Shown one piece after another: positions 3,363 to 58,672 of a DNA stretch of 64,000 nucleotides; position 1 is the stretch's first letter; the number at the start of each line of letters is the position of its first letter. The DNA is from an uncultured virus (IMG/VR IMGVR_UViG_3300034062_004002) (taxonomy: Duplodnaviria > Heunggongvirae > Uroviricota > Caudoviricetes). The DNA lies in IMG/VR virus record IMGVR_UViG_3300034062_004002, one strand, 5' to 3'. A program made the translations under genes and the position numbers. Under the pieces are notes generated by a model. It was given only the letters and a program-made list of their open reading frames with translations, searched no databases and was not told the origin of the DNA.

Positions 3363-3364
3363 TT

Positions 3365-4000: not shown

Positions 4001-4001
4001 A

Positions 4002-4613: not shown

Positions 4614-4626
4614 ATTCACTAAGAAT

Positions 4627-5361
4627 ATGAAAGTAGCGTTAGTTTGTATTGCAAAAAATGAAGATAGGTATATTCAAGAATGGACCGATTATAATAAAAA
4701 ATTAGGGTTTGACAATATTTTTATTTATCAAAATGATTGGAGATGCCAACTTGAAGACCCTAACATAGTTAAAATAGAGTTTGATGGTATTAATAAACAA
4801 AGAGAGGCCTATAATCATTTCATTAAAAATAACTATGATAACTATGATTGGGTAGCGTTTTTTGATGTTGACGAATTTTTAGTACTTAAAAAACACAGGA
4901 ACGTTAAAGATTTTATTTCCGATTATTCTCAATTTTCATCAATTGGTATTAATTGGGTTTTATTTGGTAATAACGGGTATTCTAAAATAGTCCACGAAAC
5001 AAGTGTCCTAAAAAGATTCACTAAACGCCAGAGTTCGACAAATCCTCACATTAAATCTATCGTAAAACTATCTGGTATTGTGACAATGTGTGTTCATAAC
5101 CCTCTATATATTTTGACTTGTGACACCAATAACAAAACATTTATCGGGCCTTTTAATAACCTTGGGGACGATAATATTGCACAATTAAATCATTACTTTT
5201 GTAAAACCGAAGAAGAGTTTGTCGAGAAATGTGAAAAAGGTCGTGCGGATACGGAAAATAAACGAACAATAAAAGAATTTGAACCCCATAATTTTAACGA
5301 GGTTGAAGATTTAACCGCGATGAATTTTTTATATGATAACAATAATTTACTCAACACATAA
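4627..5361 (+). CDS. glycosyltransferase (GT2/GT92-like)
   Basis: VCIAKNEDRYIQEW, WVAFFDVDEFL (DxD), INWVLFG, LNHYFCKTEEEF. Confidence 0.8.
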   Translation: MKVALVCIAKNEDRYIQEWTDYNKKLGFDNIFIYQNDWRCQLEDPNIVKIEFDGINKQREAYNHFIKNNYDNYDWVAFFDVDEFLVLKKHRNVKDFISDYSQFSSIGINWVLFGNNGYSKIVHETSVLKRFTKRQSSTNPHIKSIVKLSGIVTMCVHNPLYILTCDTNNKTFIGPFNNLGDDNIAQLNHYFCKTEEEFVEKCEKGRADTENKRTIKEFEPHNFNEVEDLTAMNFLYDNNNLLNT

Positions 5362-6841
5362 AGATTCTGAATATAATAACAAATTTAGACAACATTTGTT
5401 ACAAACTGTTGGTCTTAAAGATGTACAAATATTAGAATATGTTAACCATAATGAACATTCATTATCGGAACTTTACAATAAAGGTATTTCAGAATCAATA
5501 TACAATATTGTTGTATGTTGCCATAATGACATTAAGTTAGAGAAAGATTGGGGTAAAAAATTATTATTAGATTTTATTTCCAATGACGACTATGGAATTA
5601 TTGGTAAGGCAGGTTCTTGTTATTTCCCCGAATCAGGTGTGTATTGGGAAAGGATGGGTCAAACAATGGTTGGTCAGGTATACCATCATCCTGAAGGAAG
5701 TAAAAAATGGGTGAATAACTATTCGGCAAAACTACCTCACTTAATACCTGTAGTAACAATCGATGGTCTTTTTATATCGTTTGATAAAACTAAGATAAAA
5801 CATAACTTTGACGAAACAATTGGTAAGTTTCATTTTTATGACCATTCATTTTGTCTTCCAAATTATTTAGAGGGTGTTAAAATTGGTGTCACATCGTCTT
5901 TTGAAATAACTCACCAATCTGTTGGTCAACCAAATCAAGAATTTTTTGATAGTAAAATTAAGTTCTTAGAAAAATGGAAACATAAACTACCATTAGATTT
6001 AAAACCTACCAAGATATATGTTCCCGATATTAAAGAAAAACCGTTAAAAAATATTGGTAAAGTTGCGATTGTTATCCCAACAAAAGGAAAAGTTAATCTT
6101 TTATTTGATTGTGTTTCTTCGTTCTATGAACATTGTAACAAAGACCTATTTGATATTTTTATTGCCGATACTGGGTCATCAGACTCTGAAAAAGAGTGGA
6201 TTAAAAATAAAGTATTACCCTTTGGTAATATTAAATTATTAGAATACGATTATTATAATTTTGCTAAGATAAATAATGATGTGGTAAAAAACCATATTAC
6301 CAAAGATTACGAGTTTGTTTTATTCTGTAATAACGATATTAAAATATTAAATAACGTTGTTTATGGAATGTTAAAAACATTTAAAGACAACCATAGAACA
6401 GGTACTGTTGGTTGTAGACTTCACTTTGAGGATAATACAGTACAACATGATGGTATCGTTACGTTTCTCGATAAAAATCGGTCTTTCCAAGTCTCTCACT
6501 TAAATTTACGAAGTTACTACTCATATACCCTACCAACTAAAAAAATTGTTGGTAGTACAGGAGCGTTGTTAATGATTCGAAAATCGGTATTTGAGAAGTG
6601 TGACTATTTTAATGAAAACTATATCAGTTGTTTTGAGGATGTTGAATTAAATTTAAAATGTCTTTTATTAGGTTATAATAATTATTATGATGGTAGTTTG
6701 GTGTCTTATCATTATGAAAGTCAAACAAGAAATGAAGACCCTGAGATAATAAATAAGTTAACACAAGACTATCAAAAAAACTTACTCCCATTTGTTATAA
6801 AACATTTTGATAAATTGAAGGGTCACATTATTGTCACTTAA
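5333..6841 (+). CDS. two-domain GT2 glycosyltransferase
   Basis: N-domain YNKG..CCHNDI..IDGLF..FHFYD; C-domain AIVIPT..ADTGSSD..FCNNDI..GALLMIRK..FEDVELNL. Confidence 0.85.
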   Translation: MITIIYSTHKDSEYNNKFRQHLLQTVGLKDVQILEYVNHNEHSLSELYNKGISESIYNIVVCCHNDIKLEKDWGKKLLLDFISNDDYGIIGKAGSCYFPESGVYWERMGQTMVGQVYHHPEGSKKWVNNYSAKLPHLIPVVTIDGLFISFDKTKIKHNFDETIGKFHFYDHSFCLPNYLEGVKIGVTSSFEITHQSVGQPNQEFFDSKIKFLEKWKHKLPLDLKPTKIYVPDIKEKPLKNIGKVAIVIPTKGKVNLLFDCVSSFYEHCNKDLFDIFIADTGSSDSEKEWIKNKVLPFGNIKLLEYDYYNFAKINNDVVKNHITKDYEFVLFCNNDIKILNNVVYGMLKTFKDNHRTGTVGCRLHFEDNTVQHDGIVTFLDKNRSFQVSHLNLRSYYSYTLPTKKIVGSTGALLMIRKSVFEKCDYFNENYISCFEDVELNLKCLLLGYNNYYDGSLVSYHYESQTRNEDPEIINKLTQDYQKNLLPFVIKHFDKLKGHIIVT

Positions 6842-9583: not shown

Positions 9584-10387
9584 ATGGAAAATTTTGATGT
9601 ATCAGTAATACTACCAATTAAATCGTCTAAAGCAAACGGATTTACGGACTATTTTGAAAAAGCAATTACTTCTCTTAAAAACCAAACAAAAAAAATAAAT
9701 GAACTAATAATTGTTCATACTGATGAAACATCTTTAGTTGAGTTTTTAAATAGTTTTGATTTTGGGGATTTAAAGGTAAATAAAATTGTTTGGACTAAAG
9801 ACCCTAATTTCTCAGAACAAGTAAATCATGGTGTTAGGTCATCAGAATCTAAATGGGTTTCATTATTCGAGTTTGATGATGAATATTCAAACATTTGGTT
9901 TAAAAATGTTGAGAAATATACAATCGCACATCCTGAAGTTGACGCGTTCTTACCTATCGTTATTGATACGGACGAAAAAGGTCAATTTGCGGGTTTTACC
10001 AACGAAGCAACTTTCGCATTAAATATTGCGGCGGAAATGGGTGTCTTAAGTAATGAAACACTTCAAACATACCAAAACTTCCAAATTTCAGGAATGGTTA
10101 TTAAAAAATCATCGTTTATTGATTTTGGTTTATTAAAACCGTCTTTTAAATTAACATTTGGTTATGAGTTCTTTTTAAGAATGACAAATAATTCGGTAAA
10201 AATCATGTCTATACCTAAAATTGGTTATAAACATATTAATTTACGTGAAGGGTCAATTTTTTGGAACTATAAGAATGGTGATGACAATCTAACAGATGAA
10301 GAAGTTAGATTTTGGGTAGAGTCGGCGAAAAAAGAATATTTCTTTATCAATGATAGGTCCATAAAATATGAACCCCAAACAGTTTAA
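9584..10387 (+). CDS. GT2-like glycosyltransferase
   Basis: VSVILP, AITSL..QT, NHGV, LFEFDDEY. Confidence 0.65.
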   Translation: MENFDVSVILPIKSSKANGFTDYFEKAITSLKNQTKKINELIIVHTDETSLVEFLNSFDFGDLKVNKIVWTKDPNFSEQVNHGVRSSESKWVSLFEFDDEYSNIWFKNVEKYTIAHPEVDAFLPIVIDTDEKGQFAGFTNEATFALNIAAEMGVLSNETLQTYQNFQISGMVIKKSSFIDFGLLKPSFKLTFGYEFFLRMTNNSVKIMSIPKIGYKHINLREGSIFWNYKNGDDNLTDEEVRFWVESAKKEYFFINDRSIKYEPQTV

Positions 10388-42845: not shown

Positions 42846-42897
42846 TTTGTTATCGTCAGATTTATTCGTATATTTGTAAAACAATAGTTCTTTAACA
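42846..42897 (+). promoter_or_regulatory. Bacteroidota promoter plus boxA upstream of tmRNA
   Basis: TTTG (42846-49), 19 nt, TATATTTG (42869-76), then GTTCTTTAACA (42887-97). Confidence 0.8.
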
Positions 42898-42901
42898 TCA
42901 T

Positions 42902-43315
42902 GGGGGTAAATTGGAATTGACTGACATAGTTGGTTGTTCGGGGCATGTCAAGGCTGAGCTAACCTTGTAAAACTGGTTTAAATCGATATACGGCAACGTT
43001 ATCAACAAACTTTCTGCAGTAGGATTAATCCGCACTGAAGAAAATGTTTCAGTAGCCTAAGGCGAAAAAAACAACGGGTAGATAGACTTATACCTAGGAA
43101 CAGAACAGTCTTCATGGTGTGACATCTACCATAAAAGGTGTAAACTCTAACCAATCAGAGGATAATCAGATGGCAGAGGATAAGTTCTCAGTAAACCGAA
43201 CTGTATAATAAGGGAACTGTGGGATTTCGGATTGTTAGATTAAACAATGACCTAAACATGTAGTCCTTAATAATCGTTATGGACAACTACGAGGGTTCGA
43301 GTCCCTCTATCTCCA
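42902..43315 (+). ncRNA. ssrA: tmRNA
   Basis: 5' GGGGGTAAATTGGAATTGAC; acceptor GGGGGTA/TATCTCC with G3.U; T-arm GAGGG-TTCGAGT-CCCTC; tag frame 42992-43060 GNVINKLSAVGLIRTEENVSVA*; CCA not encoded. Confidence 0.92.
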
Positions 43316-43372
43316 CATTTAACATTTTTGTTCTTTTACTATATTTTGAAATATTTATAGTGAAAGAACAAA

Positions 43373-44053
43373 ATGCCAAGAAAAAAACCTAATTTCCACT
43401 ATATCTATAAAACCATTTGTAATTTTAATCAAAAATACTATATCGGAATGCACAGCACATCTAATTTAGAGGATGGGTATATGGGTAGTGGTAAAAGATT
43501 AAGATATTCAATAAGAAAGTATGGTAAGGATAACCACACTAAAATTATTATAGAGTTTTTACCTAACAGAGAATCATTAAAAGAACGTGAAATTGAAATT
43601 GTTAATTCGGATTTATTATTAGATGAAAATTGTATAAATCTTAAAACAGGTGGTTATGGTGGAGGGAAATTTTATTCTGAAGAACATAAATTAAAATGTT
43701 CTAAATCCGGTAATGAAATGTTTTTAAAAAAAATGCAAGATGAGGAGTATCGGAAAGAGTTTTCGAAAAAATTAAGTAATGCTTATAAAAAACAAGTTCT
43801 TGAAGGTAAACGAGAAAAAAAATATTTTTACCATTGGAATGGGAAAACTCACACAGATGAATCTAAACAAAAAATGAGTGAAGTGAAGAAAGGGACTGGT
43901 ATTGGTATTAAAAATTCACAATACGGGACTTGTTGGATAACTAAAAATAACGAAAATAAAAAAATTAAAAAGACTGACATTAATCTGTATTTAGATGATG
44001 GATGGGTTAGAGGTAGAAATACAGGTATAACCAAAAAGATAACTAAAGTATAA
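43373..44053 (+). CDS. free-standing GIY-YIG (Seg-like) homing endonuclease with NUMOD3 motif
   Basis: HYIYKT...KYYIGMHST..YMGSG; GKTHTDESKQKMS. Confidence 0.88.
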   Translation: MPRKKPNFHYIYKTICNFNQKYYIGMHSTSNLEDGYMGSGKRLRYSIRKYGKDNHTKIIIEFLPNRESLKEREIEIVNSDLLLDENCINLKTGGYGGGKFYSEEHKLKCSKSGNEMFLKKMQDEEYRKEFSKKLSNAYKKQVLEGKREKKYFYHWNGKTHTDESKQKMSEVKKGTGIGIKNSQYGTCWITKNNENKKIKKTDINLYLDDGWVRGRNTGITKKITKV

Positions 44054-44885: not shown

Positions 44886-44888
44886 TAG

Positions 44889-44961
44889 TTGCGGGAGAAG
44901 GATTCGAACCTCCGACCTAAAGGTTATGAGCCTTTCGAGCTACCAACTGCTCTATCCCACT
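44889..44961 (-). tRNA. tRNA-Met(CAT), initiator-like
   Basis: AGTGGGA TA GAGC AGTTGGTA GCTC G AAAGG CTCATAA CCTTT AGGTC GGAGG TTCGAAT CCTTC TCCCGCA A; 1:72 mismatch and A11-U24. Confidence 0.93.
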
Positions 44962-44977
44962 ATATTTGGCTATAAAT

Positions 44978-45838
44978 AAGGCTGAGATTACACCTGTTTA
45001 TGAGAAACTTTAGTAGGATTATTGATTCCCCACATATCCACTTCCTTTTGAGAAGTATTCCTCAGTGACGATTGGTTAGACCAATCACTTCTTGAGATAT
45101 CAGTTACTCTCTTATTACTTAACTCTCTTCAAAGATGCCTCTCCGACTCTTCCTTATGGGAATAGAGGTTTTTGGTAAGAATACAGTCAGACTTGCGGTC
45201 TTCATGTGCAATGAACGGCTCATTACTATGTAGTCACCTTTCACTGATACCTAACGGACACTTTTGCTTATTTTTAGTTAATTTTACTTAATTTAGTATA
45301 AGTTACGTGTTGTGGATGAATCAAAGTAGCGGTCCGTTGAAGGATTCGTTCTCTTTTGGAAAACGAAATACCAAACTACTCCGTGAGATGTCCCCATCTC
45401 CATATTTTAAGATTACTTCGTACCAAGACTTTGGTAAGTCTTTGATAAGGACAGTAGCGACACCACTCGTTCTCTATCTTACCTTTCGGTTTTAAGTCCC
45501 CTCTTATATTGGTAACCGCAATCATGTAGTTGGAGACCACATTTTTTGCTTGATACCTATGGGTTATTCTTATTGGAGTTCCCTCCTCAGACTGACAATC
45601 CACATTGCCGTTCCACCCAACCACTTTCCCTAAAGCGTTGCCCTCAGTACTAAAGGTCGGATGATATCCCACTTGTGTACTCGACCTCGGTTTCCCAAGA
45701 CGCGAACCTACTAACACTTGAAGATTCACTTTATCCCACTTTCGTGGTTTATTTAACGACCATACACGGCCGATTATCTTTTTTCAGTTATCTCAGAATC
45801 AACCCGAAGGTCTCATCATAAACATCCTGATGGATAAT
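44978..45838 (-). ncRNA. giant structured RNA, probably GOLLD
   Basis: About 860 nt, GC-richer than the flanks, many stems with GAAA/GCAA/UUCG loops; two domains split by an AU linker (~45270-45305); ends AGGTGTAATCTCAGCCT directly before a tRNA. Family assigned from size, context and recalled motifs; ends approximate. Confidence 0.68.
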
Positions 45839-45845
45839 ACAATAA

Positions 45846-46333
45846 TTCAAAGAACATATCGGACGTTTCCGATTTTGTTTTACAAAGATAGTAAACTTTT
45901 TTGATTTACCAAATCTTTTTTTGTTTTTTTTTGAGATTAGGAAACCACGATTTTACAACTAACTGTCAACCCATTCTCATTTTGTTTTACAAAGATAAGA
46001 CATTTTTTTCAATCTGTCAAATCTTTTTATGGTTATTATAACTGATGCGGTAACATATTTCATTTACACTTTAAATGCGAAGGAGTCCCGTAGTCACTTT
46101 CCTCACATACAACAGTAGCCCTACGGACCTAGACTGTTTCTATAACCAATTTCTTCAAAGAACTAAATCAGACGTTCCCGATTTGTTTTACAAAGATAGT
46201 AAACTTTTTTGATTTACCAAATTTTTTTTTGTTTTTTTTTAAAAGAACTTTTTTAAATAAAAAAGGTATTGTATAAATATCACCACTTCTTTCAAATGTT
46301 TTACAAAGGTAATAAAAAAATTTTATCTGACAA
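45846..46333 (-). promoter_or_regulatory. four tandem Bacteroidota promoters with boxA elements
   Basis: -7 TAnnTTTG at 45883-90, 45990-97, 46191-98 and 46304-11, each with (T)TTG 19-20 nt upstream; boxA GTTCTTTGAA at 45846-55 and 46154-63; the 45846-45930 block is duplicated at 46154-46240. Confidence 0.8.
46030..46148 (-). ncRNA. candidate small structured RNA (~120 nt)
   Basis: Starts just after boxA; closed by TGGTTAT/ATAACCA; inner stems AACAGT/ACTGTT, GTCCGTAG/CTACGGGAC, CATTTA/TAAATG. Confidence 0.45.
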
Positions 46334-48569: not shown

Positions 48570-48598
48570 AAAAAAGTATGACATTACGTCATACTTTT
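48570..48598 (-). terminator. intrinsic terminator
   Basis: AAAAAAGTATGAC-attac-GTCATACTTTT. Confidence 0.75.
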
Positions 48599-49628
48599 AA
48601 AGTTTTCTAAACTCAGGTTTTATTAATCCCCATATAATATGGTCATATGGTTTTTTATCCCACATTGCAAACATTACAGAACGTAACTTTGGTTTAATAT
48701 TGTTTAGAACCATAAATTCAGCAAATTCTTTTTTTGTTGGTTCAAGTTCTTTGTCTCCAAATTTACCATATCTAAAACCATCGTGACTTTTTCCACAATA
48801 TTCAGATATTTGGAAGAAACCATATTTTAAATCTTTAACATAAGATTTAATCTTATTATAAGATTCATCGGGAACATCTTTTAATAAATCCAATACATCT
48901 TCACCATTCTTCAAATACTCCCAAATACCAGTTGTGGTAACATTAGTCATTATTTTGTGAAGACGAAGATACTCAATACCTTTAACTTTGATTCTATCCC
49001 CATTGGAGAATTTAACCACAAACCCCTCTTGGTCGTTTTTAACCATTTCTTTTAGTTCTTTATAGTCTTTGATACCATCGTATTTTTTAACCACGTCAAA
49101 CCCGTATTCTCCCCACATTTCTATATCGTATTCTTTTCCTGCGGTATCAAAGGTTCCTAATAGGACTAACCCTTCATAATCACCATAATCTACTACTATT
49201 TGATTATTTTTATAAAGCACTTCAAAACAAAAAGTCAGATGTCTGAACATTATGTCAGTATTATATTTTTTTAAAAGTTCTTTCGCTTTGATTGATTGGT
49301 CAGAAGTAAATGACCCACGAGTGGCAACAACCCATTGACCTTCATACCAAAATACAATACCCAATGAGCCGTCCATTTTTTCCCATACCTCAAACTTTTC
49401 AGTTGGGGTGTGTTTACCCTCTTCAATGTTAAAGAATTTTTTAAAAGGACGAGCAATTATATTCCCTTCATTGTCGGTTACCAATCCACGACACATCAAT
49501 GTTATTTCGTCCCAAAGATTTTCATACTGAACTTTTTCGCTATAGTTCCATATGGTTAATGGAAGGGTTGGATGTATTTGTTTATACACCAACCCTTTCT
49601 CATGATACTCGTTTAATTTTTCTAACAT
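48597..49628 (-). CDS. rnlA: RNA ligase 1 (T4 Rnl1-like)
   Basis: CRGL, ARPFKKFFN, EKMDGSLG (motif I), ATRGSF, EGFVV, KVKG..Y. Confidence 0.9.
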   Translation of the reverse strand: MLEKLNEYHEKGLVYKQIHPTLPLTIWNYSEKVQYENLWDEITLMCRGLVTDNEGNIIARPFKKFFNIEEGKHTPTEKFEVWEKMDGSLGIVFWYEGQWVVATRGSFTSDQSIKAKELLKKYNTDIMFRHLTFCFEVLYKNNQIVVDYGDYEGLVLLGTFDTAGKEYDIEMWGEYGFDVVKKYDGIKDYKELKEMVKNDQEGFVVKFSNGDRIKVKGIEYLRLHKIMTNVTTTGIWEYLKNGEDVLDLLKDVPDESYNKIKSYVKDLKYGFFQISEYCGKSHDGFRYGKFGDKELEPTKKEFAEFMVLNNIKPKLRSVMFAMWDKKPYDHIIWGLIKPEFRKL

Positions 49629-49671
49629 ATTACAAAGATAAGTTTATTTTTCGGATTTCAAAATGTTTTAA

Positions 49672-50322
49672 TTACCCCACAATCCCCTTTATTTCATCCG
49701 TATGGTGGTCAAACAACATATCTGACATAATCTCACGCTTATCCATCATCCTGATAATATCGTCCATGTCATATACCCCAAACTTTGGATGACCGTCCAT
49801 ACCAACGTCCATTTTTTTACCCTCACCAAATCTTAGATTTGTCGGTAAATGACAGTGCCCGTGAAGTTGGATATGACCTTTATTTAAACCATCCCAACTT
49901 TGGATAGGGTAATGACATAAGACAAATGTTTTAAATTTATACATCAATTTTGTGTAGTGATTTACACTCGTAAATAATTCCTGAACATTGTCTCGGTTAT
50001 TCTCAATATGTGTATCGTGATTTCCTAATACAAGGTGAATCTCTTTACACAAAATTCTATCTCTAAACTTTTGGATGTTTTCAAATCCCCCAAAACTAAA
50101 ATCCCCAAGATGAATTAATACATCGTCTTGTCCAACAACACTATTAATGTTATTAACAATTGTTTCGTTCATCTGTTCTATTGTATTAAAATTTCTTGTT
50201 TGAGATATTGGGATACTACCATCAGGAAGACGCCATTCGGTTACTCCTCTACAAATATTTTTGTGCCCGTAGTGAGAATCTGAGACCACCCATACTTTTC
50301 TATCTTTCACTATTTTAATCAT
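49672..50322 (-). CDS. calcineurin-like metallophosphoesterase
   Basis: SDSHYGH, HLGDF, LGNHD, LCHYP, LHGHCH, DVGMD. Confidence 0.9.
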   Translation of the reverse strand: MIKIVKDRKVWVVSDSHYGHKNICRGVTEWRLPDGSIPISQTRNFNTIEQMNETIVNNINSVVGQDDVLIHLGDFSFGGFENIQKFRDRILCKEIHLVLGNHDTHIENNRDNVQELFTSVNHYTKLMYKFKTFVLCHYPIQSWDGLNKGHIQLHGHCHLPTNLRFGEGKKMDVGMDGHPKFGVYDMDDIIRMMDKREIMSDMLFDHHTDEIKGIVG

Positions 50323-50372
50323 AACACAAATATAAACTTTTTTTTCAAAACAAAAAATTTTTTTTAACTTAA

Positions 50373-51383
50373 TTAAATACCATAAGGTGTTTTACTAAAA
50401 ATAATATTTTCTTTTAATTCGGTATGGTTTGATATAAAGTTTTTAATGTTTTCCTGCATTTCATCTGAATTATCATAAGTATAAATCACATTATTATAGA
50501 TTAAGTTAAAAACCCCAACTTTTTCCAAAATATCAATTTTATTAAAAATCAAATTTGTGACTCCATTTATGTTAATTGATTTAATAATATCATCCACATT
50601 TAACCAATTAACCTGTCTCGGTCTTCCTGTCGTTGCACCAAATTCTCCACCCTCTTGTCTTATTTTCTCAAAATATTCTGATTTACCTTCAAAAGATTTT
50701 AACCCCACATATGTTCTATATGCTTTGGCAATACCATATACTTTTCTAATTTTTTGTGGTGGAACACCATTTAATACCGCAGAACCAACGGTACAATGTG
50801 AAGATGTGACATATGGATAATCTCCCCAATCAATATCCAATTCAAAACCTTGGGCTCCTTCAAAAAGAATCGATACTTCATTATTCCCATACAACTCATC
50901 GTAAATATCAATAACCATATTCCTATCATTTAAACGGGAATTGTTCTCGGCTCTAACTCCAACTCTATAATATTTATCACGATAAGAAGGACCATTTCCG
51001 GTTTTTGTTGTTCCAATTTCAGTGTCTTTGGAATCTTCCTCAATATGACTCTTGGTGATAATGTGAACTCGTTTATCAACAAATAAATTACCGTCTACTT
51101 TAATCCCATTAGATTCCAGTTCGTTAATTTCCTCAAATAGTTTATCAATATTTACAACACACCCGGGACCTATAATTGATTTTATACCGTAAAGCACCCC
51201 ACAAGGGATAAGATGGGTTACAAATTTTTTATCATTATGATATATTGTGTGTCCGGCATTACCACCACCATTATACCTAATTACTGTTGTATAATCACCT
51301 GTTTTACATAAGGAATGTGTGACTTTACCTTTACCTGTGTCTCCCGCTTGTAGGTCAACAACAACATCTGCGAATTTAATCAT
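50373..51383 (-). CDS. purA: adenylosuccinate synthetase (short form)
   Basis: GDTGKGK, GGGNAGHT, IGTTKTGNGPSY, FEGAQG, DWGDYPYVTSS, EFGATTGRPR, NKID. Confidence 0.92.
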   Translation of the reverse strand: MIKFADVVVDLQAGDTGKGKVTHSLCKTGDYTTVIRYNGGGNAGHTIYHNDKKFVTHLIPCGVLYGIKSIIGPGCVVNIDKLFEEINELESNGIKVDGNLFVDKRVHIITKSHIEEDSKDTEIGTTKTGNGPSYRDKYYRVGVRAENNSRLNDRNMVIDIYDELYGNNEVSILFEGAQGFELDIDWGDYPYVTSSHCTVGSAVLNGVPPQKIRKVYGIAKAYRTYVGLKSFEGKSEYFEKIRQEGGEFGATTGRPRQVNWLNVDDIIKSININGVTNLIFNKIDILEKVGVFNLIYNNVIYTYDNSDEMQENIKNFISNHTELKENIIFSKTPYGI

Positions 51384-51394
51384 TATTTAATAAT

Positions 51395-51874
51395 TTAGTT
51401 ATATGTTAATTTAAAATCAAACCAAAATGGTTTTTCTCTGTTTTTCCATACCGCAAATCCTGACTTTGCCCCCATATAATAATTTCTATAGGATTCTACC
51501 ACGGATTTGACTTTATATTCATCCGGCATTGCCATCGCAGGTTCTGTAAAACCAATATCAGGAATGTTTGGTTTATTAATTAAACACCATTCAATAACAT
51601 CCTGAGATTTATGTCTTTTTCCGTATCGGTAAGTGTACTCCTTAGATAACTCCAACCCCAACTCACACAAGTACAAATAGTTTGATAATGACTTTCTCGC
51701 CCATATTGAACAGGGGTGATTTTTGTGGGATAACTTGTATGGTGCGGACCCTCCTGTAACATGGTGAGCCGAACATAAAAGTTGTGCGGTTTCCAATATC
51801 ATCTTAACAACGTGTTTGTCGCAATGGTATTCCGCACACTTTTTAACATCAAAATCTAAGAAGAAAATATTCAT
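51395..51874 (-). CDS. denV: pyrimidine-dimer DNA glycosylase (DenV family)
   Basis: MNIFFLD..HCDKHVVKMILETAQLL, HKNHPCSIW, EYTYRYGKRH, AMPDEYK, YRNYY. Confidence 0.8.
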   Translation of the reverse strand: MNIFFLDFDVKKCAEYHCDKHVVKMILETAQLLCSAHHVTGGSAPYKLSHKNHPCSIWARKSLSNYLYLCELGLELSKEYTYRYGKRHKSQDVIEWCLINKPNIPDIGFTEPAMAMPDEYKVKSVVESYRNYYMGAKSGFAVWKNREKPFWFDFKLTYN

Positions 51875-51876
51875 TT

Positions 51877-52284
51877 TTATACAGTATGTTCGATTTGTAC
51901 TCTGATACAATTTTGTGGTAAACAATTGATGTGGCGATAGTTATTGATGTAACCCATCATATTCGCGCTACCGATAGCGTTTGCTGAGTGTATTACTACA
52001 TCTACAACAGGTTCACCATCCATCCATTTTTCCACTAACCATTTAGTACAATCCATTCCTGTTTTTTCAGTAATGTTATCGTAATTCAATTCGTAGTTGT
52101 GGTAAACATTTTTATGCCATTCCGCCATCGCAGTATCACCTAAGTCATGGTCCAAAGAGATTACATCAATATTTTCGAATCCAACTTCAGTCACCAATTT
52201 AACGAAATCTTCATAGTTACGAACAACCAACCAACTTTTGTCTTTTGGACTTCTAACATCGTCCAAGTAAATTTTCTTTTTCAT
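51877..52284 (-). CDS. cyclic-phosphate-processing receiver-domain protein
   Basis: IYLDDVRSP, ISLDHDLG, TGMDCTKWL, HSANAIG. Confidence 0.8.
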   Translation of the reverse strand: MKKKIYLDDVRSPKDKSWLVVRNYEDFVKLVTEVGFENIDVISLDHDLGDTAMAEWHKNVYHNYELNYDNITEKTGMDCTKWLVEKWMDGEPVVDVVIHSANAIGSANMMGYINNYRHINCLPQNCIRVQIEHTV

Positions 52285-52313
52285 AACACAAATATACAAA
52301 TAATTTTTGAAAT

Positions 52314-52346
52314 AAAAAACCCCTCCGAATAGAAGGGGTTAAAAAA
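52314..52346 (-). terminator. intrinsic terminator of the candidate ncRNA
   Basis: Minus strand AACCCCTTC-tattc-GGAGGGGTT-TTTT. Confidence 0.8.
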
Positions 52347-52810
52347 GTCAGACACTCACACCGATAGGGTTCACATCGGAACTGACGTTAGGTTATATAG
52401 TATCCCTTAACTGCTATTATCCCTCCCGACTATCCCTTTTGAGTTAAAGAGCTTAGTAACCATCCATCGGGGGTTTCTACTTTCACACTCCGTCCATGTT
52501 TACTTATCTAATCGATGCGTCATAGAGTTTTCAACATAGCGTTCAGTGCTATCCTCAGAACATCTTCACCCTACCCCCAAAGTTACGTGGTGAGTCTCAC
52601 TCGGAAGAAGAGTGTATATTGTAAGATTGTTCAGTATTCTTACAACTTGTGGATTGTATTACGACTAATTAAAGCCCCTTACCCCCTTAACCCATAATGG
52701 GGAATCCTTACCTAACCTGTGTAGCCTCCCCCATAGCCTTGAAGCCTTCAAGTCAGGTTCACACGCCATAACAGTCGGATATCTCTGTTAATCGTGGGGT
52801 CTTATTTTGT
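52347..52810 (-). ncRNA. unclassified large structured RNA (~460 nt)
   Basis: Own promoter and terminator; G-rich; no sense ORF; stems TAACAG/CTGTTA, AACCTG/CAGGTT, TTGTAAGA/TCTTACAA, CACTC/GAGTG, TCACC/GGTGA, ATAGC/GCTAT, CCGAT/ATCGG, GTCAG/CTGAC. Confidence 0.7.
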
Positions 52811-52814
52811 TCTA

Positions 52815-52846
52815 CAAATGTAGTAATAGTTTTTCAAACTATCAAA
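52815..52846 (-). promoter_or_regulatory. Bacteroidota promoter
   Basis: TTTG (52843-46), 20 nt, TACATTTG (52815-22). Confidence 0.75.
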
Positions 52847-52850
52847 TATT

Positions 52851-52944
52851 ACCGTGAAATTGGTTAACCACATCGTGAAAGCCGCCCCTCACGCGTTGTT
52901 TAAAGGAATCCGATTGCGGCCTCATCCTATTAACTTATCACGGT
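52851..52944 (-). ncRNA. 94-nt bulged rod hairpin 3' of tRNA-Leu
   Basis: Nested stems ACCGTGA/TCACGGT, GTTAA/TTAAC, GCCGC/GCGGC. Confidence 0.45.
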
Positions 52945-52948
52945 TTTG

Positions 52949-53032
52949 TACCCTTGGAGAGATTCGAACTCTCAATGTCGTTATGACTCCTGAACCTAAA
53001 TCAGGCGGCTATACCAATTTGCCTACGAGGGT
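52949..53032 (-). tRNA. tRNA-Leu(TAG)
   Basis: ACCCTCG acceptor (one mismatch), CCTGA-TTTAGGT-TCAGG anticodon arm, long variable arm, GAGAG-TTCGAAT-CTCTC. Confidence 0.9.
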
Positions 53033-53037
53033 ATTTT

Positions 53038-53244
53038 TTATTGTTTCACATACATCATCATCTCACGCATTTTGAGAATCAGTAACTCCATTTCATCTTC
53101 ATTGAGATACATTCTTGGATTTCCTGTTTTATCATCCAATTCTTTTGTTTCTACAATGATACCGTCAAATGTTTCTGTTGGATAAACTTCTACATTCTGC
53201 TCTTCTGTTGATATTGTTATTTTACACCAAATTTTATTTTTCAT
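53038..53244 (-). CDS. hypothetical protein
   Basis: 68-aa ORF in a tightly packed run of genes. Confidence 0.65.
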   Translation of the reverse strand: MKNKIWCKITISTEEQNVEVYPTETFDGIIVETKELDDKTGNPRMYLNEDEMELLILKMREMMMYVKQ

Positions 53245-53245
53245 A

Positions 53246-53635
53246 TTATTTATTTTTAGCCATTTCTATTAATCTAATTAGACATTCAAGTTCTGCTTCT
53301 TCTGGAGAATGTAAATTAAAACTTTCATCCCAATTATTACTAAAGTCAGTAATCTCGTAGCACCATTTTTTGGTATCTTGTAATAAGGCAAGTGGATGAA
53401 TATAACTTATTAAACCATACTTCTCTCTAAACCATCTAAATGATTGAGAGAATGTTGGTGCATGACAAACATTATCTACCCATTTAAATTGTTCTTTTTC
53501 TGATTGAATTTGTATTAATTTAAACGGTATTTCTTTATTATCAGCAAAACTCACATAATAACCAAAACAAGGTTCATCAAAGCCTAATTCTTTAAGTGCT
53601 AATGCTTGTTCGTATGGTATAAATTCGTTTTTCAT
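53246..53635 (-). CDS. hypothetical protein, paralog of 53828..54298
   Basis: EFIPYEQALALKELGFDEPC...APTFSQSFRWFREKY...EEAELECL. Confidence 0.8.
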   Translation of the reverse strand: MKNEFIPYEQALALKELGFDEPCFGYYVSFADNKEIPFKLIQIQSEKEQFKWVDNVCHAPTFSQSFRWFREKYGLISYIHPLALLQDTKKWCYEITDFSNNWDESFNLHSPEEAELECLIRLIEMAKNK

Positions 53636-53655
53636 GTTATTTCTTTAAAAGTTTA

Positions 53656-53826
53656 TTAATTTTGATACTTGTTGTTTAATGAGGTAATAAATACTTTTAA
53701 AGTTTTGCCATCATCTTGATAAGACAATACCACTCTGCAATTGTAATTTGTGTATGCTCTGCCTTCCTCATCAATAACTTCAAATCTTGTTACTTTTGTA
53801 GTGTCGGCTTTATTTTCTTTTGTCAT
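53656..53826 (-). CDS. hypothetical protein
   Basis: KVTRFEVIDEEGRAY..LSYQDDGKTLKVFI; ATG 53826. Confidence 0.7.
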   Translation of the reverse strand: MTKENKADTTKVTRFEVIDEEGRAYTNYNCRVVLSYQDDGKTLKVFITSLNNKYQN

Positions 53827-54316: not shown

Positions 54317-54404
54317 TGTTGGAGACAGGATTCGAACCTGTATTCAGGGACTTAAAGTAAATTCCCCCTCTAAGTTTGTATGGCAACCATTACGCCACTC
54401 CAAC
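54317..54404 (-). ncRNA. tRNA-like RNA with non-canonical anticodon domain
   Basis: Perfect GTTGGAG/CTCCAAC acceptor + A; D-arm with TAATGGT; ACAGG-TTCGAAT-CCTGT T-arm; ~40-nt middle without a 7-nt anticodon loop. Confidence 0.7.
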
Positions 54405-56246: not shown

Positions 56247-58061
56247 TCAACCTTTTCTTCTGTTATTACTACTAAAAATATTTGGAGGAGAACTTTTTTT
56301 ATTTTTTTTAACGTCACCAAACTCTCTTGATTGATAGACTAATGAATCTTTTTTAATTTCGGTTATCTTCATTCTGTCAACAGGTTTATTTTCTCTAATA
56401 GGTTTTATATGATTTACAGGGATATAAACTCCTTTTTGTTGGGTAATTTTATTTATTAAATCATAATCAACCTTTGTTTTAGGTAATTTGGGGTTAGTTA
56501 GAATATTACTCAACACCTCATTAACAACCATCTTTTTATGTTTAATTTCATCGAACCCTTCAATAGGGTTAAAATGATTGACAAAAACTTCGTAGAATTG
56601 AGATATCTGTAACATAGGTAAAGGTCCAAATGTTTTTTTATTTTCAATGAGGTTATTATATTTAGTCCTCACTATTGACCCATAACCTGTCTGTCTTGAT
56701 TGTGTTAAACTATTTTGATGTAGTCTTCTATAAAATAAAACTGTTGGGCTATTAATTGATTTACAATTATTTTTATATAACCTACCCATAAAATCTGTAT
56801 CAGCCGATGTTCTCCAACCTTCAAACCCATTCATAGATAAGAATAACTCTTTTTTTATACTAAAAACCCCTTCACCCCAAAAGTTTTCTTTACTTACAAA
56901 ATTATTGTTAGGTGTTTCTCCTGTAAAATTTAAATATTTAGGTCTTACGAAATCAATAAACATTTGTAATCTAAGAATTTCTTTAATCATATTTTCCCCC
57001 ATAACATCATCGGAATCAAAAAATAGAATTATATTTGAATTAGAATTTTTAACTAATGTGTTTTTAACAATGTATGGTCCAACATTTTGTTGGAAATAGA
57101 AAAATCGTATCCTATCATCAAAAATATTATGTTTAATAAACTCTAAAGTTTTTTCACAATTATCGATACCCACTAAAATTTCACAATTCAACGACTTTAC
57201 CGACTCAATAACTGACGATAAACATTGTATTATAAATTCGGTATTATTAAACGTAGGTATTATTATTGAAATCTCTTTGTTTGTCAGTATGTTAATTTGA
57301 GGTCGGTTAATATATTTTAATTTAATATCATTAAAAGACTCACCATTAACTTCAATAAAAGGAGCAATCTTTAACACATTTAAAGGTCCATGTTGGTTTT
57401 TTATTTGTTTTATTTTCTTTTTTTCGTGATATTTTTTTCTTAAAGGAGAATTCATACCAGTAATACCACCACCCGTTAAATTCGACTCATGTCTTCTATA
57501 AAAAAGACCCACCGTATTTAAAGTTTTTATTTTTTTTCCACTGGACAACATCCTCCAATAAAACTCACCATCCGAAGCACAAACCCACGGCTCAAACCCA
57601 TTTGAGTCAGTAAAAACTTTTTTAATTATTCCAAAAGTACCTGAATGGTAGTTGGAATCAGTCATAACCAATTCTATATTAGTAGGTAATGTAAGTTTTC
57701 CTTGGAATGTCCTATACCCATATCTAACATAATCATAAGATTTTAAAGAGTCGATAACCTTAGTTACTAACGTAGTTAACATAACATCATCAGAATCAAA
57801 AAATAATAGTTTATCATATTTTGAAATTGATACCAAAGTATTACGAATAATATACGTCCCGACTTTTTCGGTAAAAAAAAGAATTTTAATATTTGGGGGG
57901 AATGTTTTCTTAATTAAATTAAGATATGTTAAGGTTTTTTCACAGTTATCAATACCAACAAGTAACTCATATTCAGTATTTCCACAAGACTTTACTATAG
58001 AATCTAAAGCCTCTTTAATATAAAGAGTGTTATTGTGTGCGGTTACAATTATTGATATCAT
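56247..58061 (-). CDS. tandem two-domain GT2 glycosyltransferase
   Basis: The unit SII..T.NNT..I, LVGIDNC, VG.YI..NTL, FFDSDDVM, GFE.W..D.(E/D)F, YRR.H occurs twice. Confidence 0.85.
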   Translation of the reverse strand: MISIIVTAHNNTLYIKEALDSIVKSCGNTEYELLVGIDNCEKTLTYLNLIKKTFPPNIKILFFTEKVGTYIIRNTLVSISKYDKLLFFDSDDVMLTTLVTKVIDSLKSYDYVRYGYRTFQGKLTLPTNIELVMTDSNYHSGTFGIIKKVFTDSNGFEPWVCASDGEFYWRMLSSGKKIKTLNTVGLFYRRHESNLTGGGITGMNSPLRKKYHEKKKIKQIKNQHGPLNVLKIAPFIEVNGESFNDIKLKYINRPQINILTNKEISIIIPTFNNTEFIIQCLSSVIESVKSLNCEILVGIDNCEKTLEFIKHNIFDDRIRFFYFQQNVGPYIVKNTLVKNSNSNIILFFDSDDVMGENMIKEILRLQMFIDFVRPKYLNFTGETPNNNFVSKENFWGEGVFSIKKELFLSMNGFEGWRTSADTDFMGRLYKNNCKSINSPTVLFYRRLHQNSLTQSRQTGYGSIVRTKYNNLIENKKTFGPLPMLQISQFYEVFVNHFNPIEGFDEIKHKKMVVNEVLSNILTNPKLPKTKVDYDLINKITQQKGVYIPVNHIKPIRENKPVDRMKITEIKKDSLVYQSREFGDVKKNKKSSPPNIFSSNNRRKG

Positions 58062-58672
58062 TTCACGGGTTTTTCTCCTTCGTTTAATTTTGATAATGTA
58101 TTATTATCATGAATAACTAATTTTACATCACCAATTGCTGGAATGTAAATAATATTTCTAGTTATTCTAGGTAACAAGTCGTGTACTTGGTCAAAAATCC
58201 CATTTTTTACTTTTTTCTGTATTAAAGTTGAAAACATAGAACATACTTTACTATAATCCCTACTATGAAAATAATCTTTTCCTGTTAAATCATCATGTTT
58301 ATAGGGGTGAAAGTTTAAAATAAAATCATCATATTTAGATTTATTATTTTCATACAATTGATGTATTTTTTCTATATAATTAGGTGACATATAATCATCA
58401 CAATCATGTCTTGTTTGGATTGTAATATCATTATTTATCGCATATTCTCGATAATCGTTTTTAACGTCCCCAAACATTAAAATCTCAATATTTTTATCAA
58501 TAGAATCTCTTATTGTTTGATAATGTAATGGGTTCACTATTAAAGCAATTTTAAAATTTTTATCTGTTTGAGAATTTATTGAGGGTATATAATATTTTTT
58601 TATTGCTGAAAAATACTTATTAAACCTTTCATCATCTTTAAAATTACATCTGGTTACTATTAAATGTTTCAT
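58058..58672 (-). CDS. putative glycosyltransferase (rhamnosyltransferase-like)
   Basis: HLIVTRCN, YYIPSINSQTDKNF, QTRHDCDD. Confidence 0.65.
   Translation of the reverse strand: MKHLIVTRCNFKDDERFNKYFSAIKKYYIPSINSQTDKNFKIALIVNPLHYQTIRDSIDKNIEILMFGDVKNDYREYAINNDITIQTRHDCDDYMSPNYIEKIHQLYENNKSKYDDFILNFHPYKHDDLTGKDYFHSRDYSKVCSMFSTLIQKKVKNGIFDQVHDLLPRITRNIIYIPAIGDVKLVIHDNNTLSKLNEGEKPVK

What the first reader, a model, noticed from the sequence alone, without database searches (positions are those of the whole stretch)
52347..52810. Stand-alone ~460-nt G-rich structured RNA of no recognisable class
Seen: a complete transcription unit (TTTG-20-TACATTTG promoter, strong terminator) with no sense-strand ORF, at least eight helices, nested multi-stem domains, a G-over-C excess on the transcribed strand and several G-tracts. 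It lacks the hallmark motifs I can recognise for RNase P, tmRNA, SRP or group I/II introns. It sits between tRNA-Leu and the RNA-repair genes. This is the best candidate in the window for a new large phage ncRNA.
Basis: partly seen in the sequence, partly recalled or inferred. Interest (0 to 1): 0.8.

Follow-up and report, generated by a model that had tools for sequence, protein, structure and literature searches.

The report
New large pseudoknotted phage RNA
A roughly 460-base non-coding RNA with an unusually intricate, evolutionarily conserved fold sits among the tRNA genes of a group of large lake-water phages and matches no catalogued RNA family, so it looks like a new class of large phage RNA alongside the two known ones, GOLLD and ROOL.

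Summary
On the minus strand, 52803→52347, lies a 457-nt ORF-free RNA gene. It has a Bacteroidota-type promoter motif (52846–52815) and an intrinsic terminator (52340–52318). No Rfam 15 family matches it or 10 diverse homologues, although the same scan finds a genuine GOLLD, a tmRNA and tRNAs in the window. I collected 131 distinct full-length homologues from uncultivated phage and lake metagenome contigs. I found none in 50,697 GenBank phage records, and none among the pattern hits in 185,579 prokaryote genomes. A 42-sequence alignment supports 17 helices, five of them pseudoknots or long-range loop pairings. 97.7% of cells are paired (34–45% in slid controls). 58 of 90 pairs show compensatory changes, and 0 of 500 shuffles reach the observed value on 4 of the 5 measures, 2 of 500 on the fifth. 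Homologues sit inside same-strand tRNA arrays, often 2–11 nt from the next tRNA. Contigs from four metatranscriptome studies cover the RNA almost end to end. The carriers are T4-like phages of up to 304 kb, and some also carry GOLLD. Verdict: this is a real, probably new class of large ornate phage RNA. Its function is unknown. By context it resembles GOLLD and ROOL, but it is not a member of either family.

The parts
52815..52846 (-). Bacteroidota-type promoter motif TTTG-N20-TACATTTG. It also matches a weak sigma-70 pattern, TTGATA-17-TACATT.
   Evidence: The same TAnnTTTG box precedes homologues L028/L026, L102, L093 and L100.
52347..52803 (-). The conserved RNA, 457 nt, from the 5' motif AAGACCCCACGAUUAAC to the end of the 3' hairpin.
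   Evidence: alignments A3, A4 and A5; nhmmer profile hit at 52805-52377; RNA-library contigs span 52347-52804
52729..52799 (-). H1: CCCCA (52799-52795) pairs with UGGGG (52733-52729). It encloses H2 (52790-52787 / 52772-52769) and H3 (52757-52753 / 52742-52737).
   Evidence: H1 is nearly invariant (one CG->GU change in 42 sequences). H2 and H3 each have 2 covarying pairs.
52704..52780 (-). Pseudoknot A: the H2 loop AUCC (52780-52777) pairs with GGAU (52707-52704).
   Evidence: 4 of 4 pairs have changes on both sides; 98.8% of cells paired
52650..52703 (-). H4 (52703-52699 / 52686-52682). Its loop UGGGUU (52694-52689) pairs with AAUCCA (52655-52650), forming pseudoknot B. H5 (52678-52673 / 52666-52661) carries an invariant UUAA in its loop.
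   Evidence: H4 and H5 each have 2 covarying pairs. Pseudoknot B is mostly invariant, with 1 covarying pair.
52558..52646 (-). H6 (52646-52638 / 52626-52618). Its loop GAACA (52632-52628) pairs with UGUUC (52562-52558), forming pseudoknot C. H7 (52614-52610 / 52602-52598) and H8 (52595-52588 / 52579-52573) lie between them.
   Evidence: H6: 7 of 9 pairs covary. Pseudoknot C: 2 of 5. H8: 4 of 7. CM R1, built on this core, scores 198 bits here (by construction, since the window copy is in the model) and nothing else in the window exceeds 11 bits.
52485..52549 (-). Exchangeable peripheral domain closed by H10 (52549-52546 / 52488-52485). It is replaced by a short hairpin in 8 of 42 homologues and by other inserts in further homologues.
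   Evidence: H10: 4 of 4 pairs covary
52422..52473 (-). H11 (52473-52467 / 52429-52422) with the invariant internal loop GGAUGGUUACUA (GGUUACUA at 52461-52454), and H12 (52451-52446 / 52439-52434).
   Evidence: H11: 6 of 7 pairs covary. H12: 6 of 6.
52354..52444 (-). Pseudoknot D: the H12 loop ACUCA (52444-52440) pairs with UGAGU (52358-52354) in the 3' side of the terminal hairpin.
   Evidence: 5 of 5 pairs covary. In the window's own 4-sequence subgroup the MAFFT register is off by one column; I checked the complementarity by eye.
52347..52409 (-). Pseudoknot E: AGGG (52407-52404) pairs with CCCU (52369-52366) in the loop of the 3' terminal hairpin. That hairpin is GUCAG/UCUGAC at 52386-52382 / 52352-52347, with inner stem CCGAU/AUCGG at 52379-52375 / 52365-52361.
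   Evidence: pseudoknot E: 5 of 5 pairs covary. Outer stem: 5 of 5. Inner stem: 3 of 3.
52318..52340 (-). Intrinsic terminator (9-bp stem, 5 G-C pairs, T-run) that closes the transcription unit in this phage.
   Evidence: The homologues lack it and are instead followed by a tRNA.
52860..52940 (-). Conserved leader element between tRNA-Leu and the promoter. In relatives L091, L101, L105 and L048 it runs straight into the RNA, without the promoter insertion.
   Evidence: RNA-library contigs join 52868-52929 to 52804 in two runs.
52948..53032 (-). tRNA-Leu (anticodon UAG) upstream on the same strand.
51877..52299 (-). Downstream gene for a cyclic-phosphate-processing receiver domain (cREC_REC). 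It is a neighbour only and not a constant partner.
   Evidence: PF20274, E = 2.9e-22

Best explanation
This is the gene for a stable, trans-acting, highly structured non-coding RNA of a family that is not in Rfam. T4-like, mostly jumbo phages of lake water carry it inside their tRNA islands; their host is probably Bacteroidota.

Shown:
- The RNA is conserved, non-coding and read from the minus strand. Many G-U pairs would be A-C on the other strand.
- It folds into about 12 nested helices tied together by five covarying pseudoknots or loop-loop pairings, with two exchangeable peripheral domains.
- It is present once per phage genome.
- It occurs in RNA libraries from lakes.

Inferred:
- In this phage it is made from its own promoter and ended at its own terminator.
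- In most relatives it is co-transcribed with flanking tRNAs and cut out by the tRNA-processing enzymes: RNase P at the next tRNA's 5' end, 2-11 nt after the RNA, and a tRNA 3'-end nuclease at the preceding tRNA.

Most likely mode of action (inferred by analogy, about 1 in 3): like GOLLD and ROOL, it acts as a compact particle made of RNA alone, possibly a homo-oligomer. It would accumulate during infection and serve the phage's tRNA and translation agenda. It would not act as a cis-regulator or a guide.
For: - Not a known family: Rfam 15 gathering and E<=10 scans are negative, and 10 diverse homologues are negative at E<=1. The scan works, because it finds GOLLD at 319 bits, tmRNA at 79 bits and the tRNAs in the same window.
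That makes 131 distinct full-length variants. Pairwise identity among the 55 distinct variants from the viral-contig scans is 0.59-1.00, median 0.74.
- Structure: RNAalifold predicts 72 pairs, 38 of them with compensatory changes. My 17-helix model has 90 pairs with 97.7% of cells paired, against 34-45% when the partners are slid. 58 pairs change on both sides, against 12-22 when slid. 0 of 500 shuffles reach the observed value on 4 of 5 measures, and 2 of 500 on the fifth. In the 3' domain 30 of 31 pairs are compensatory. On 130 sequences the helices I could score are 86.5-100% paired.
- Non-coding: every frame carries stops in all 55 variants.
- tRNA-island context: 35 of 55 variant loci hold a same-strand tRNA and 0 hold an antisense one. 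In 21 a tRNA starts within 40 nt of the 3' end, and in 6 a tRNA ends within 10 nt of the 5' motif.
- Transcription signals.
- RNA libraries: 6 metatranscriptome runs hold 0.20-0.27 of the words of the 1,101-nt query. I laid four of them, from four studies. Their contigs cover 52347-52804, including variants with the 80-nt insert and with other leaders.
- Copy number: CM R1 finds exactly one copy in each of three phage contigs that CheckV rates 100% complete, and one in the window.
- The analogy: GOLLD and ROOL are phage RNAs 'often near tRNA islands', multi-pseudoknotted, of unknown function, and they form RNA-only cages (passages read in bioRxiv 10.1101/2024.12.08.627333).
Against: - The single-sequence MFE is no better than shuffles (z = -0.32).
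- Expression rests on assembled contigs from RNA libraries. These cannot show strand, ends or level, and they can contain DNA (the tool's own caution).
- No oligomerisation, partner or activity was tested or could be tested here. The GOLLD/ROOL analogy is contextual only: there is no sequence or model similarity.
- H1, pseudoknot B and the GUAACU/GGUUAC pairing are almost invariant, so covariation barely tests them.
- The related sequences share ancestry, which inflates shuffle-based significance.
- Novelty caveat: the alignment archives of a catalogue of 8,495 IMG/VR candidate structured RNAs (PMC10690425) could not be read. Six contig ids were absent from the supplementary tables I could search, and the file searched holds no IMG/VR contig ids at all. 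Fragments of this RNA could be listed there under a number.
Confidence: 0.75

Rival explanations
1. It is a ribozyme. The conserved pseudoknotted core would form an active site that acts on the neighbouring tRNA precursors or on itself, for example to release itself from the tRNA array or to process or repair tRNAs.
For: There are many invariant unpaired nucleotides held in place by five tertiary pairings. That much pseudoknotted tertiary structure would be compatible with a catalytic core; the comparison with large ribozymes is recalled and was not tested here. The RNA's ends abut tRNA ends in many loci. In the window it lies in a block with RNA ligase 1, a metallophosphatase and cREC_REC.
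Against: No Rfam ribozyme family matches: RNase P, group I/II introns and the small self-cleavers are all negative. The window copy has its own promoter and terminator and no abutting tRNA, so self-release is not needed there. Host RNase P and tRNA 3'-end nucleases are enough to explain the processing. No activity was tested.
Confidence: 0.12
2. It is a decoy, sponge or scaffold for a protein. For example it might trap a host tRNA-targeting defence nuclease, or organise the phage's tRNA-repair enzymes. In that case it works as an RNP and not as an RNA-only particle.
For: It sits in tRNA islands. In this phage it lies next to an RNA-repair cassette: Rnl1 at 48597-49628, a metallophosphatase at 49672-50322 and cREC_REC at 51877-52299. 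Its presence in RNA-library contigs fits a stoichiometric binder.
Against: No protein gene is constantly adjacent. The cREC_REC neighbour is separated from the RNA or lacks it in 73 of 79 related loci. No tRNA-like element was detected inside the RNA by ARAGORN or the Rfam tRNA model.
Confidence: 0.15
3. It is only a cis-acting part of the tRNA operon or of the downstream operon: a long spacer, a processing signal, a terminator/antiterminator or a riboswitch-like leader.
For: It is co-linear with tRNAs on the same strand. Its 3' hairpin is followed by a U-run that looks like a terminator, yet a tRNA follows 2-11 nt later in many loci. In the window it lies upstream of cREC_REC.
Against: A 457-nt core with 17 covarying helices and 5 pseudoknots is far more than a spacer or terminator needs. 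The flanking tRNAs differ from locus to locus: Phe, Thr, Ile, Asp, Met, Glu, Pro and Ser downstream. In the window a terminator separates it from the downstream gene. The cREC_REC gene is usually found without it.
Confidence: 0.05
4. It is a very divergent member of an already described family (GOLLD 5' domain, ROOL, RNase P RNA, tmRNA, OLE or a group I intron), or one of the numbered candidates of an existing phage structured-RNA catalogue.
For: It shares the same habitat and genomic context as GOLLD and ROOL. The catalogue in PMC10690425 mined IMG/VR, and its alignments could not be inspected.
Against: No Rfam hit appeared even at permissive thresholds, for 11 diverse members. It has no similarity to the GOLLD copy 7 kb away, which is itself complete against the model (positions 1-416 of 416). 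A genuine tmRNA is present elsewhere in the window. My three full-text searches listed no third tRNA-island large RNA.
Confidence: 0.07

Closest known systems
GOLLD RNA (Rfam RF02032)
   Same: It is phage-encoded and found in lake metagenomes. It is large, ornate and multi-pseudoknotted, lies next to or among tRNA genes, and has variable peripheral domains around a conserved core. Its function is unknown. It co-occurs in this very window (44979-45383, with tRNA-Met 18 nt downstream) and in 2 of 5 other large contigs that carry the new RNA.
   Different: There is no sequence or covariance-model similarity. The new RNA is about half the size (about 400-560 nt, against more than 800 nt for many GOLLDs). 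The two are separate genes in the same genome, so they are not variants of one another.
ROOL RNA (Rfam RF03087)
   Same: It is an RNA of phages and prophages, often near tRNA islands, with a complex multi-pseudoknot secondary structure, a size of about 500-650 nt, no known protein partner, and high abundance where measured (passages read).
   Different: There is no model match at E<=10. ROOL is reported from prophages and phages (passages read), and its rumen and Lactobacillales setting is recalled. Here 0 of 7 pattern hits in 185,579 prokaryote genomes are the RNA, and all carriers are uncultivated, T4-like phages of lake water.
OLE, HEARO, raiA and other large bacterial ncRNAs of unknown or partly known function
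   Same: They are large, strongly conserved and supported by covariation, and were found by comparative genomics.
   Different: They are cellular and not phage-borne (recalled). None of the Rfam families matched.
RNase P RNA and tmRNA
   Same: They are of similar size, pseudoknotted and functionally tied to tRNAs. tmRNA is also encoded by this phage (42902-43318).
   Different: No model match. ARAGORN finds no tmRNA or tRNA-like domain in the locus. I did not see the RNase P conserved-region motifs; I recalled those motifs and did not test them with a tool.

Membership tests
GOLLD (RF02032) | Match to the Rfam covariance model at or above 150 bits (conserved 3' domain) | tested here: not met
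   No match at E<=10 in 52100-53100, and none at E<=1 in 10 homologue loci. The same library scores the window's true GOLLD at 319.1 bits.
GOLLD (RF02032) | Phage-borne and adjacent to tRNA genes | tested here: met
   T4-like phage genes in the window. 35 of 55 variant loci hold same-strand tRNAs. This feature is contextual and does not establish membership.
ROOL (RF03087) | Match to the Rfam covariance model at or above its gathering score | tested here: not met
   No ROOL match.
ROOL and GOLLD as a functional kind | Self-assembly into RNA-only homo-oligomeric cages | not testable with these tools
   This needs native gels, mass photometry or cryo-EM of the transcript. Only indirect hints exist: five loop-mediated long-range pairings that covariation cannot assign as intra- or intermolecular.
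Bacterial RNase P RNA (RF00010, RF00011) | Covariance-model match, including the P4 pseudoknot with its conserved regions | tested here: not met
   No match.
tmRNA (RF00023) | tRNA-like domain plus a tag-peptide reading frame | tested here: not met
   ARAGORN and Rfam find none at this locus. Rfam finds a separate tmRNA at 42902-43318.
Group I and group II introns | Model match and flanking exons of an interrupted gene | tested here: not met
   No Rfam match. The flanking tRNAs are intact.
Riboswitch or cis-regulatory leader | Constant position directly upstream of the same regulated gene family | tested here: not met
   A terminator separates it from the downstream gene. The downstream neighbours are different tRNAs. 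Only 6 of 79 related cREC_REC loci have it within 4 kb.
Protein-coding gene or small ORF | A conserved open reading frame | tested here: not met
   All six frames carry stops in all 55 variants. The window has only a 34-aa sense ORF.

The most novel reading that the evidence does not exclude
This would be a third, structurally unrelated class of self-assembling RNA-only nanostructure from phage tRNA islands. On this reading, some of the five covarying 'pseudoknots' are really contacts between copies. Candidates are the H12-loop/3'-hairpin pairing, the H6-loop pairing and the invariant GUAACU/GGUUAC pair. The particle would be released from tRNA precursors by RNase P and would hold or shield phage tRNAs, or tRNA-repair intermediates, during infection of Bacteroidota. 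GOLLD and this RNA occur together in some of these genomes, which would then mean that the two kinds of particle do different jobs in one cell.
Probability: 0.2. Interest if true: 0.92.

Novelty: categorically new. Interest (0 to 1): 0.78.

Why it matters
Very few large, intricately folded RNAs of unknown function are known in bacteria and phages; GOLLD, ROOL, OLE, raiA and HEARO are the main ones. Two of them, GOLLD and ROOL, were recently shown to build RNA-only cages. Both share an unexplained tie to phage tRNA islands.

A further class with the same tie but an unrelated fold makes that association a pattern rather than a coincidence. This one has more than 130 natural variants, five covarying tertiary pairings and exchangeable peripheral domains. 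It also lives in the same genomes as GOLLD and a phage tmRNA.

That gives structural biologists a new cryo-EM target of about 460 nt with a ready-made deep alignment. It gives phage biologists a way to ask what tRNA-island RNAs do: what do phages with GOLLD, with this RNA, with both, or with neither have in common?

Tried and rejected
- Single-sequence folding gave no signal (z = -0.32).
- BLASTN of three diverse members against 50,697 GenBank phage records found no match.
- CM R1 found nothing in the two closest cultured phages I could identify, Flavobacterium phage vB_FspM_immuto_3-5A and Microcystis phage Mel-JY01. No cultured system is therefore in hand.
- The genome-contig scan gave 7 pattern hits, all chance matches in unrelated sequence. 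This covers one pattern only, so divergent prophage copies are not excluded.
- Comparison with the window's GOLLD region gave only random short matches.
- I considered the cREC_REC/RNA-repair link and dropped it as a constant association.
- Flank coverage in RNA libraries: the adjacent coding sequence is little covered by the laid contigs, and X16 also shows isolated contigs at 51785-51861 and 53633-53700 with loose ends. Following the tool's caution, uncovered parts and per-contig depths are not used as evidence.
- Contig ends at 52347 and 52797 (X15) and at 52804 (X16, X17, with loose ends or a joint that lead into relatives' leaders) are at most a weak hint of the RNA's ends.
- RNAalifold's pairings 44-47/558-561, 85-91/197-203 and 216-219/247-250 were replaced by alternatives that show two-sided covariation.
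- I considered G-quadruplex formation by the G-tracts and rejected it, because the tracts sit in covarying C/G helices.
- Supplements of PMC10690425: six contig ids were not found in the readable tables, the file searched holds no IMG/VR contig ids at all, and the alignment archives were unreadable.
- The genome search on the window's own assembly and on relatives was not available.
Full report
**What is there**

The finding lies on the minus strand. Reading 5'->3' on that strand the order is as follows.
- tRNA-Leu(UAG), 53032->52948.
- A conserved leader element of about 80 nt.
- The promoter-like motif TTTG-N20-TACATTTG, 52846->52815.
- The RNA itself. It begins with AAGACCCCACGAUUAAC at 52803 and ends with a hairpin at 52347.
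- A canonical intrinsic terminator, 52340->52318.
- The next gene, a cREC_REC protein, starting at 52299.

No ORF of note lies in the RNA. The longest sense ORF is 34 aa and the longest antisense ORF is 60 aa. G+C is 44% against 31% for the window. The G-over-C excess (+0.18) is the same as in the neighbouring genes on that strand (+0.21), so it is not a mark of the RNA.

**More than chance?**

A single-sequence fold is unremarkable (z = -0.32), so the case rests on comparison with relatives.

The promoter motif is the Bacteroidota sigma-A type; that assignment is recalled. It is enriched in the window: 13 sites against 3.97 +/- 2.05 expected, with 0 of 100 shuffles reaching 13. Its other sites lie just upstream of the tmRNA, upstream of the GOLLD RNA (three sites) and upstream of the RNA ligase gene.

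**Relatives**

The window's own assembly is not held. An identical 22-kb IMG/VR fragment is held.

I first looked near relatives of the neighbouring cREC_REC gene. Leaving out the two loci that are copies of the window itself, 6 of the other 79 loci held the RNA within 4 kb. It was never adjacent to the gene, and it always sat among tRNAs.

Pattern scans built from invariant stretches, each confirmed with an nhmmer profile, gave the following.

| Collection | Loci with the RNA |
|---|---|
| viral contigs, pattern 1 | 28 of 29 |
| viral contigs, pattern 2 | 55 of 95 |
| viral contigs, pattern 3 | 71 of 73 |
| one genome per prokaryote species | 0 of 7 |

In all there are 131 distinct full-length variants of about 400-560 nt. 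Pairwise identity among the 55 distinct variants from the viral-contig scans is 0.59-1.00, median 0.74.

Three diverse members find nothing by BLASTN in 50,697 GenBank phage records.

DNA runs that hold the stretch are lake or freshwater metagenomes: 14 rows hold 0.88 or more of the words, from 12 studies. Two of the metagenome contigs are labelled marine.

**Is it a known RNA?**

No.
- Rfam 15 (4,227 families) at gathering thresholds finds GOLLD (319 bits, 44979-45383), tmRNA (79 bits, 42902-43318) and three tRNAs in the window. It finds nothing at this locus.
- At E<=10 over 52100-53100 the matches are the tRNA, one sub-threshold match inside it, and seven sub-threshold matches of small-RNA models to the terminator and 3'-hairpin end. 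None is to a large-RNA family.
- Ten diverse homologue loci give only tRNAs and one sub-threshold match on top of a tRNA.
- There is no similarity to the window's GOLLD region.
- Three full-text searches listed no further tRNA-island large RNA beside GOLLD and ROOL.
- A catalogue of 8,495 IMG/VR candidate structured RNAs exists (PMC10690425; I read passages and searched supplements). Six of my contig ids are not in its readable tables, and the file searched holds no IMG/VR contig ids at all. Its alignment archives could not be opened, so a numbered fragment of this RNA there cannot be excluded.

**Structure**

RNAalifold on 42 distinct sequences (alignment A3) predicts 72 pairs, 38 of them with compensatory changes.

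A scan of all column pairs replaced three of its helices with alternatives that covary on both sides. It also added five long-range pairings.
- Pseudoknot A: the H2 loop with a strand about 70 nt downstream.
- Pseudoknot B: the H4 loop with AAUCCA.
- Pseudoknot C: the H6 loop with UGUUC.
- Pseudoknot D: the H12 loop with the 3' side of the terminal hairpin.
- Pseudoknot E: a spacer segment with the terminal hairpin's loop.

| Measure (full model, 90 pairs in 17 helices) | Observed | Controls |
|---|---|---|
| Cells forming standard pairs | 97.7% | 34-45% with partners slid 1-3 columns |
| Pairs changed on both sides | 58 | 12-22 when slid |
| Shuffles reaching the observed value | 0 of 500 on four measures | 2 of 500 on the fifth |

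On a separate alignment of the 3' domain, 30 of 31 pairs are compensatory and 95.7% of cells are paired, against 32-47% when slid. On 130 sequences the scored helices are 86.5-100% paired.

Conserved G-U pairs would be A-C on the other strand, which fixes the transcribed strand as minus. Examples are G-U in 42 of 42 sequences at H5 and 41 of 42 at H6.

Some pairings are too invariant for covariation to test them.
- H1.
- Pseudoknot B.
- A possible sixth pairing, between the H8 loop GUAACU and the invariant GGUUAC of the H11 internal loop. It is complementary in 130 of 130 sequences, though the GUAACU side was fixed by the search pattern in 120 of them.

An A..C <-> G..U covariation at alignment columns 241/245 is coupled to the H4 pair 200:215. 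I cannot explain it.

Two peripheral domains are exchangeable.
- An insert of about 80 nt after H1 is present in 22 of 42 sequences: 20 share one form and L193 and L169 carry a different insert at the same site.
- The domain closed by H10 has several forms and is replaced by a short hairpin in 8 of 42 sequences.

**Context**

The window is a T4-like myovirus. It encodes Gp23 capsid, Gp20 portal, prohead protease and T4-type terminase. It also encodes PhoH, a ClpB-like ATPase, T4-type RNA ligase 1, a metallophosphatase, adenylosuccinate synthetase and cREC_REC.

Carriers include contigs of 219-304 kb that CheckV rates 88-100% complete. The core model R1 was run on three of them and finds exactly one copy in each. 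GOLLD is present in 2 of the 5 tested.

By portal protein, the closest cultured phages are only 41% identical (Microcystis phage Mel-JY01) and 37% identical (Flavobacterium phage immuto). Both lack the RNA. A Bacteroidota host is inferred from the promoter type. It is not shown.

Among the 55 distinct variants from the viral-contig scans:
- 35 loci hold at least one same-strand tRNA and none holds an antisense tRNA;
- in 21 a tRNA starts within 40 nt of the RNA's end, mostly 2-11 nt after it;
- in 6 a tRNA ends within 10 nt of the 5' motif.

ARAGORN misses some evident tRNA 3' ends, so these counts are lower bounds.

With only 2-11 nt between the RNA and the next tRNA there is no room for a promoter. 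Those tRNAs must therefore be read through the RNA's 3' hairpin. That hairpin is part of the fold, because it takes part in pseudoknots D and E.

**Expression**

Six metatranscriptome runs hold 0.20-0.27 of the words of the 1,101-nt query. I laid four of them, from four studies. Their contigs cover 52347-52804.
- One 523-nt contig carries 80 extra letters exactly at the optional-insert site (52709/52717).
- Contigs of two runs join 52804 to 52868-52929, which is the relatives' arrangement without the promoter insertion.
- One loose end leads into the other leader type.

So several variants of the family are present in RNA libraries. Contigs cannot show strand, ends or level, and DNA can be present in such libraries. 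I rate this as moderate evidence of expression and only a weak hint of the ends.

**How it most likely works**

Shown: a conserved, non-coding, minus-strand RNA with an intricate pseudoknotted fold. There is one copy in each of the three complete contigs searched, it sits in tRNA islands, and it is present in RNA libraries.

Inferred: it is transcribed from its own promoter and terminated here. Elsewhere it is released from tRNA precursors by RNase P at the downstream tRNA and by tRNA 3'-end processing at the upstream tRNA.

Inferred by analogy (about 1 in 3): it acts as a stable RNA-only particle, like GOLLD and ROOL, which are also tRNA-island phage RNAs and form cages. Covariation cannot tell pairings within one molecule from pairings between copies, so some of the five 'pseudoknots' may be quaternary contacts.

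The rivals are a ribozyme acting on tRNA precursors (0.12), a protein decoy or scaffold tied to tRNA damage and repair (0.15), a purely cis-acting operon element (0.05), and a divergent known family or an already catalogued candidate (0.07).

**Comparison and novelty**

It works in the same setting as GOLLD and ROOL, but it fails the one testable membership criterion for each, the covariance-model match. It also coexists with GOLLD as a separate gene. I therefore file it as a new RNA family and class, not as a member or variant of a known one. It belongs to the loose group of large ornate phage RNAs of unknown function.

**Verdict**

Confidence that this is a genuine structured ncRNA is about 0.95. 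Confidence that it is a family not yet described is about 0.85. Confidence in the whole best explanation, including processing and trans action, is 0.75. Interest is 0.78.

Noticed in passing
window 44979-45383 (-), with 44888-44961 (-) and 45883-46221 (-): A complete GOLLD RNA (319 bits, model positions 1-416 of 416) has tRNA-Met(CAU) 18 nt downstream. Three Bacteroidota-type promoter motifs lie upstream, and two of them are identical 31-mers 308 nt apart (45883-45913 and 46191-46221). This suggests a duplicated upstream unit, or a long variable 5' domain.
   Followed up: partly
window 42902-43318 (+): A phage-encoded tmRNA: Rfam scores it at 78.6 bits over the full model, but ARAGORN does not call it. 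A promoter motif lies at 42846-42876, and a gene carrying a NUMOD3 motif (probably a homing endonuclease) follows at 43373-44053.
   Followed up: no
window 54317-54404 (-): An 88-nt tRNA-like element just passes the Rfam tRNA threshold (32.5 bits against 29), but ARAGORN does not call it. It may be an unusual or degenerate tRNA.
   Followed up: no
window 48597-52299 (-): A block of RNA-repair-type genes: T4-type RNA ligase 1 (48597-49628), a calcineurin-like metallophosphatase (49672-50322), adenylosuccinate synthetase (50373-51383), a weak pyrimidine-dimer-glycosylase-like ORF (51395-51925) and cREC_REC (51877-52299). The last two ORFs, as listed, overlap by 49 nt.
   Followed up: partly
L108:1017-1091 (-), directly upstream of the RNA homologue: In a related phage contig, a tRNA with anticodon CUA (ARAGORN labels it 'Pyl'), a potential amber suppressor, ends 1 nt before the RNA's 5' motif. 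This hints at stop-codon recoding in some carriers.
   Followed up: no
window 52860-52940 (-); L102, L093, L100, L094, L096, L087, L083, L092 upstream of the RNA: Two unrelated conserved leader elements of 60-100 nt precede the RNA in different lineages. One follows tRNA-Leu(UAG). The other follows tRNA-Ser(UGA) or a TAnnTTTG promoter. Both appear in RNA-library contigs. They may be optional 5' domains or separate small RNAs.
   Followed up: partly
A3 columns 241-245 = window 52660-52656 (-): The segment AAUAC alternates with GUUGU. Columns 241 and 245 covary as A..C <-> G..U (mutual information 0.96), and both track the H4 base pair 200:215 (C-G <-> U-A). This could be an isosteric wobble pair or a base triple, or it could be shared ancestry.
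   Followed up: partly
window 2148-6841 (+), 9584-10387 (+) and 56247-58672 (-): The phage carries many sugar-modifying genes: a C-methyltransferase, two FkbM methyltransferases, several family-2 glycosyltransferases and a rhamnosyl-transferase-like gene.
   Followed up: no
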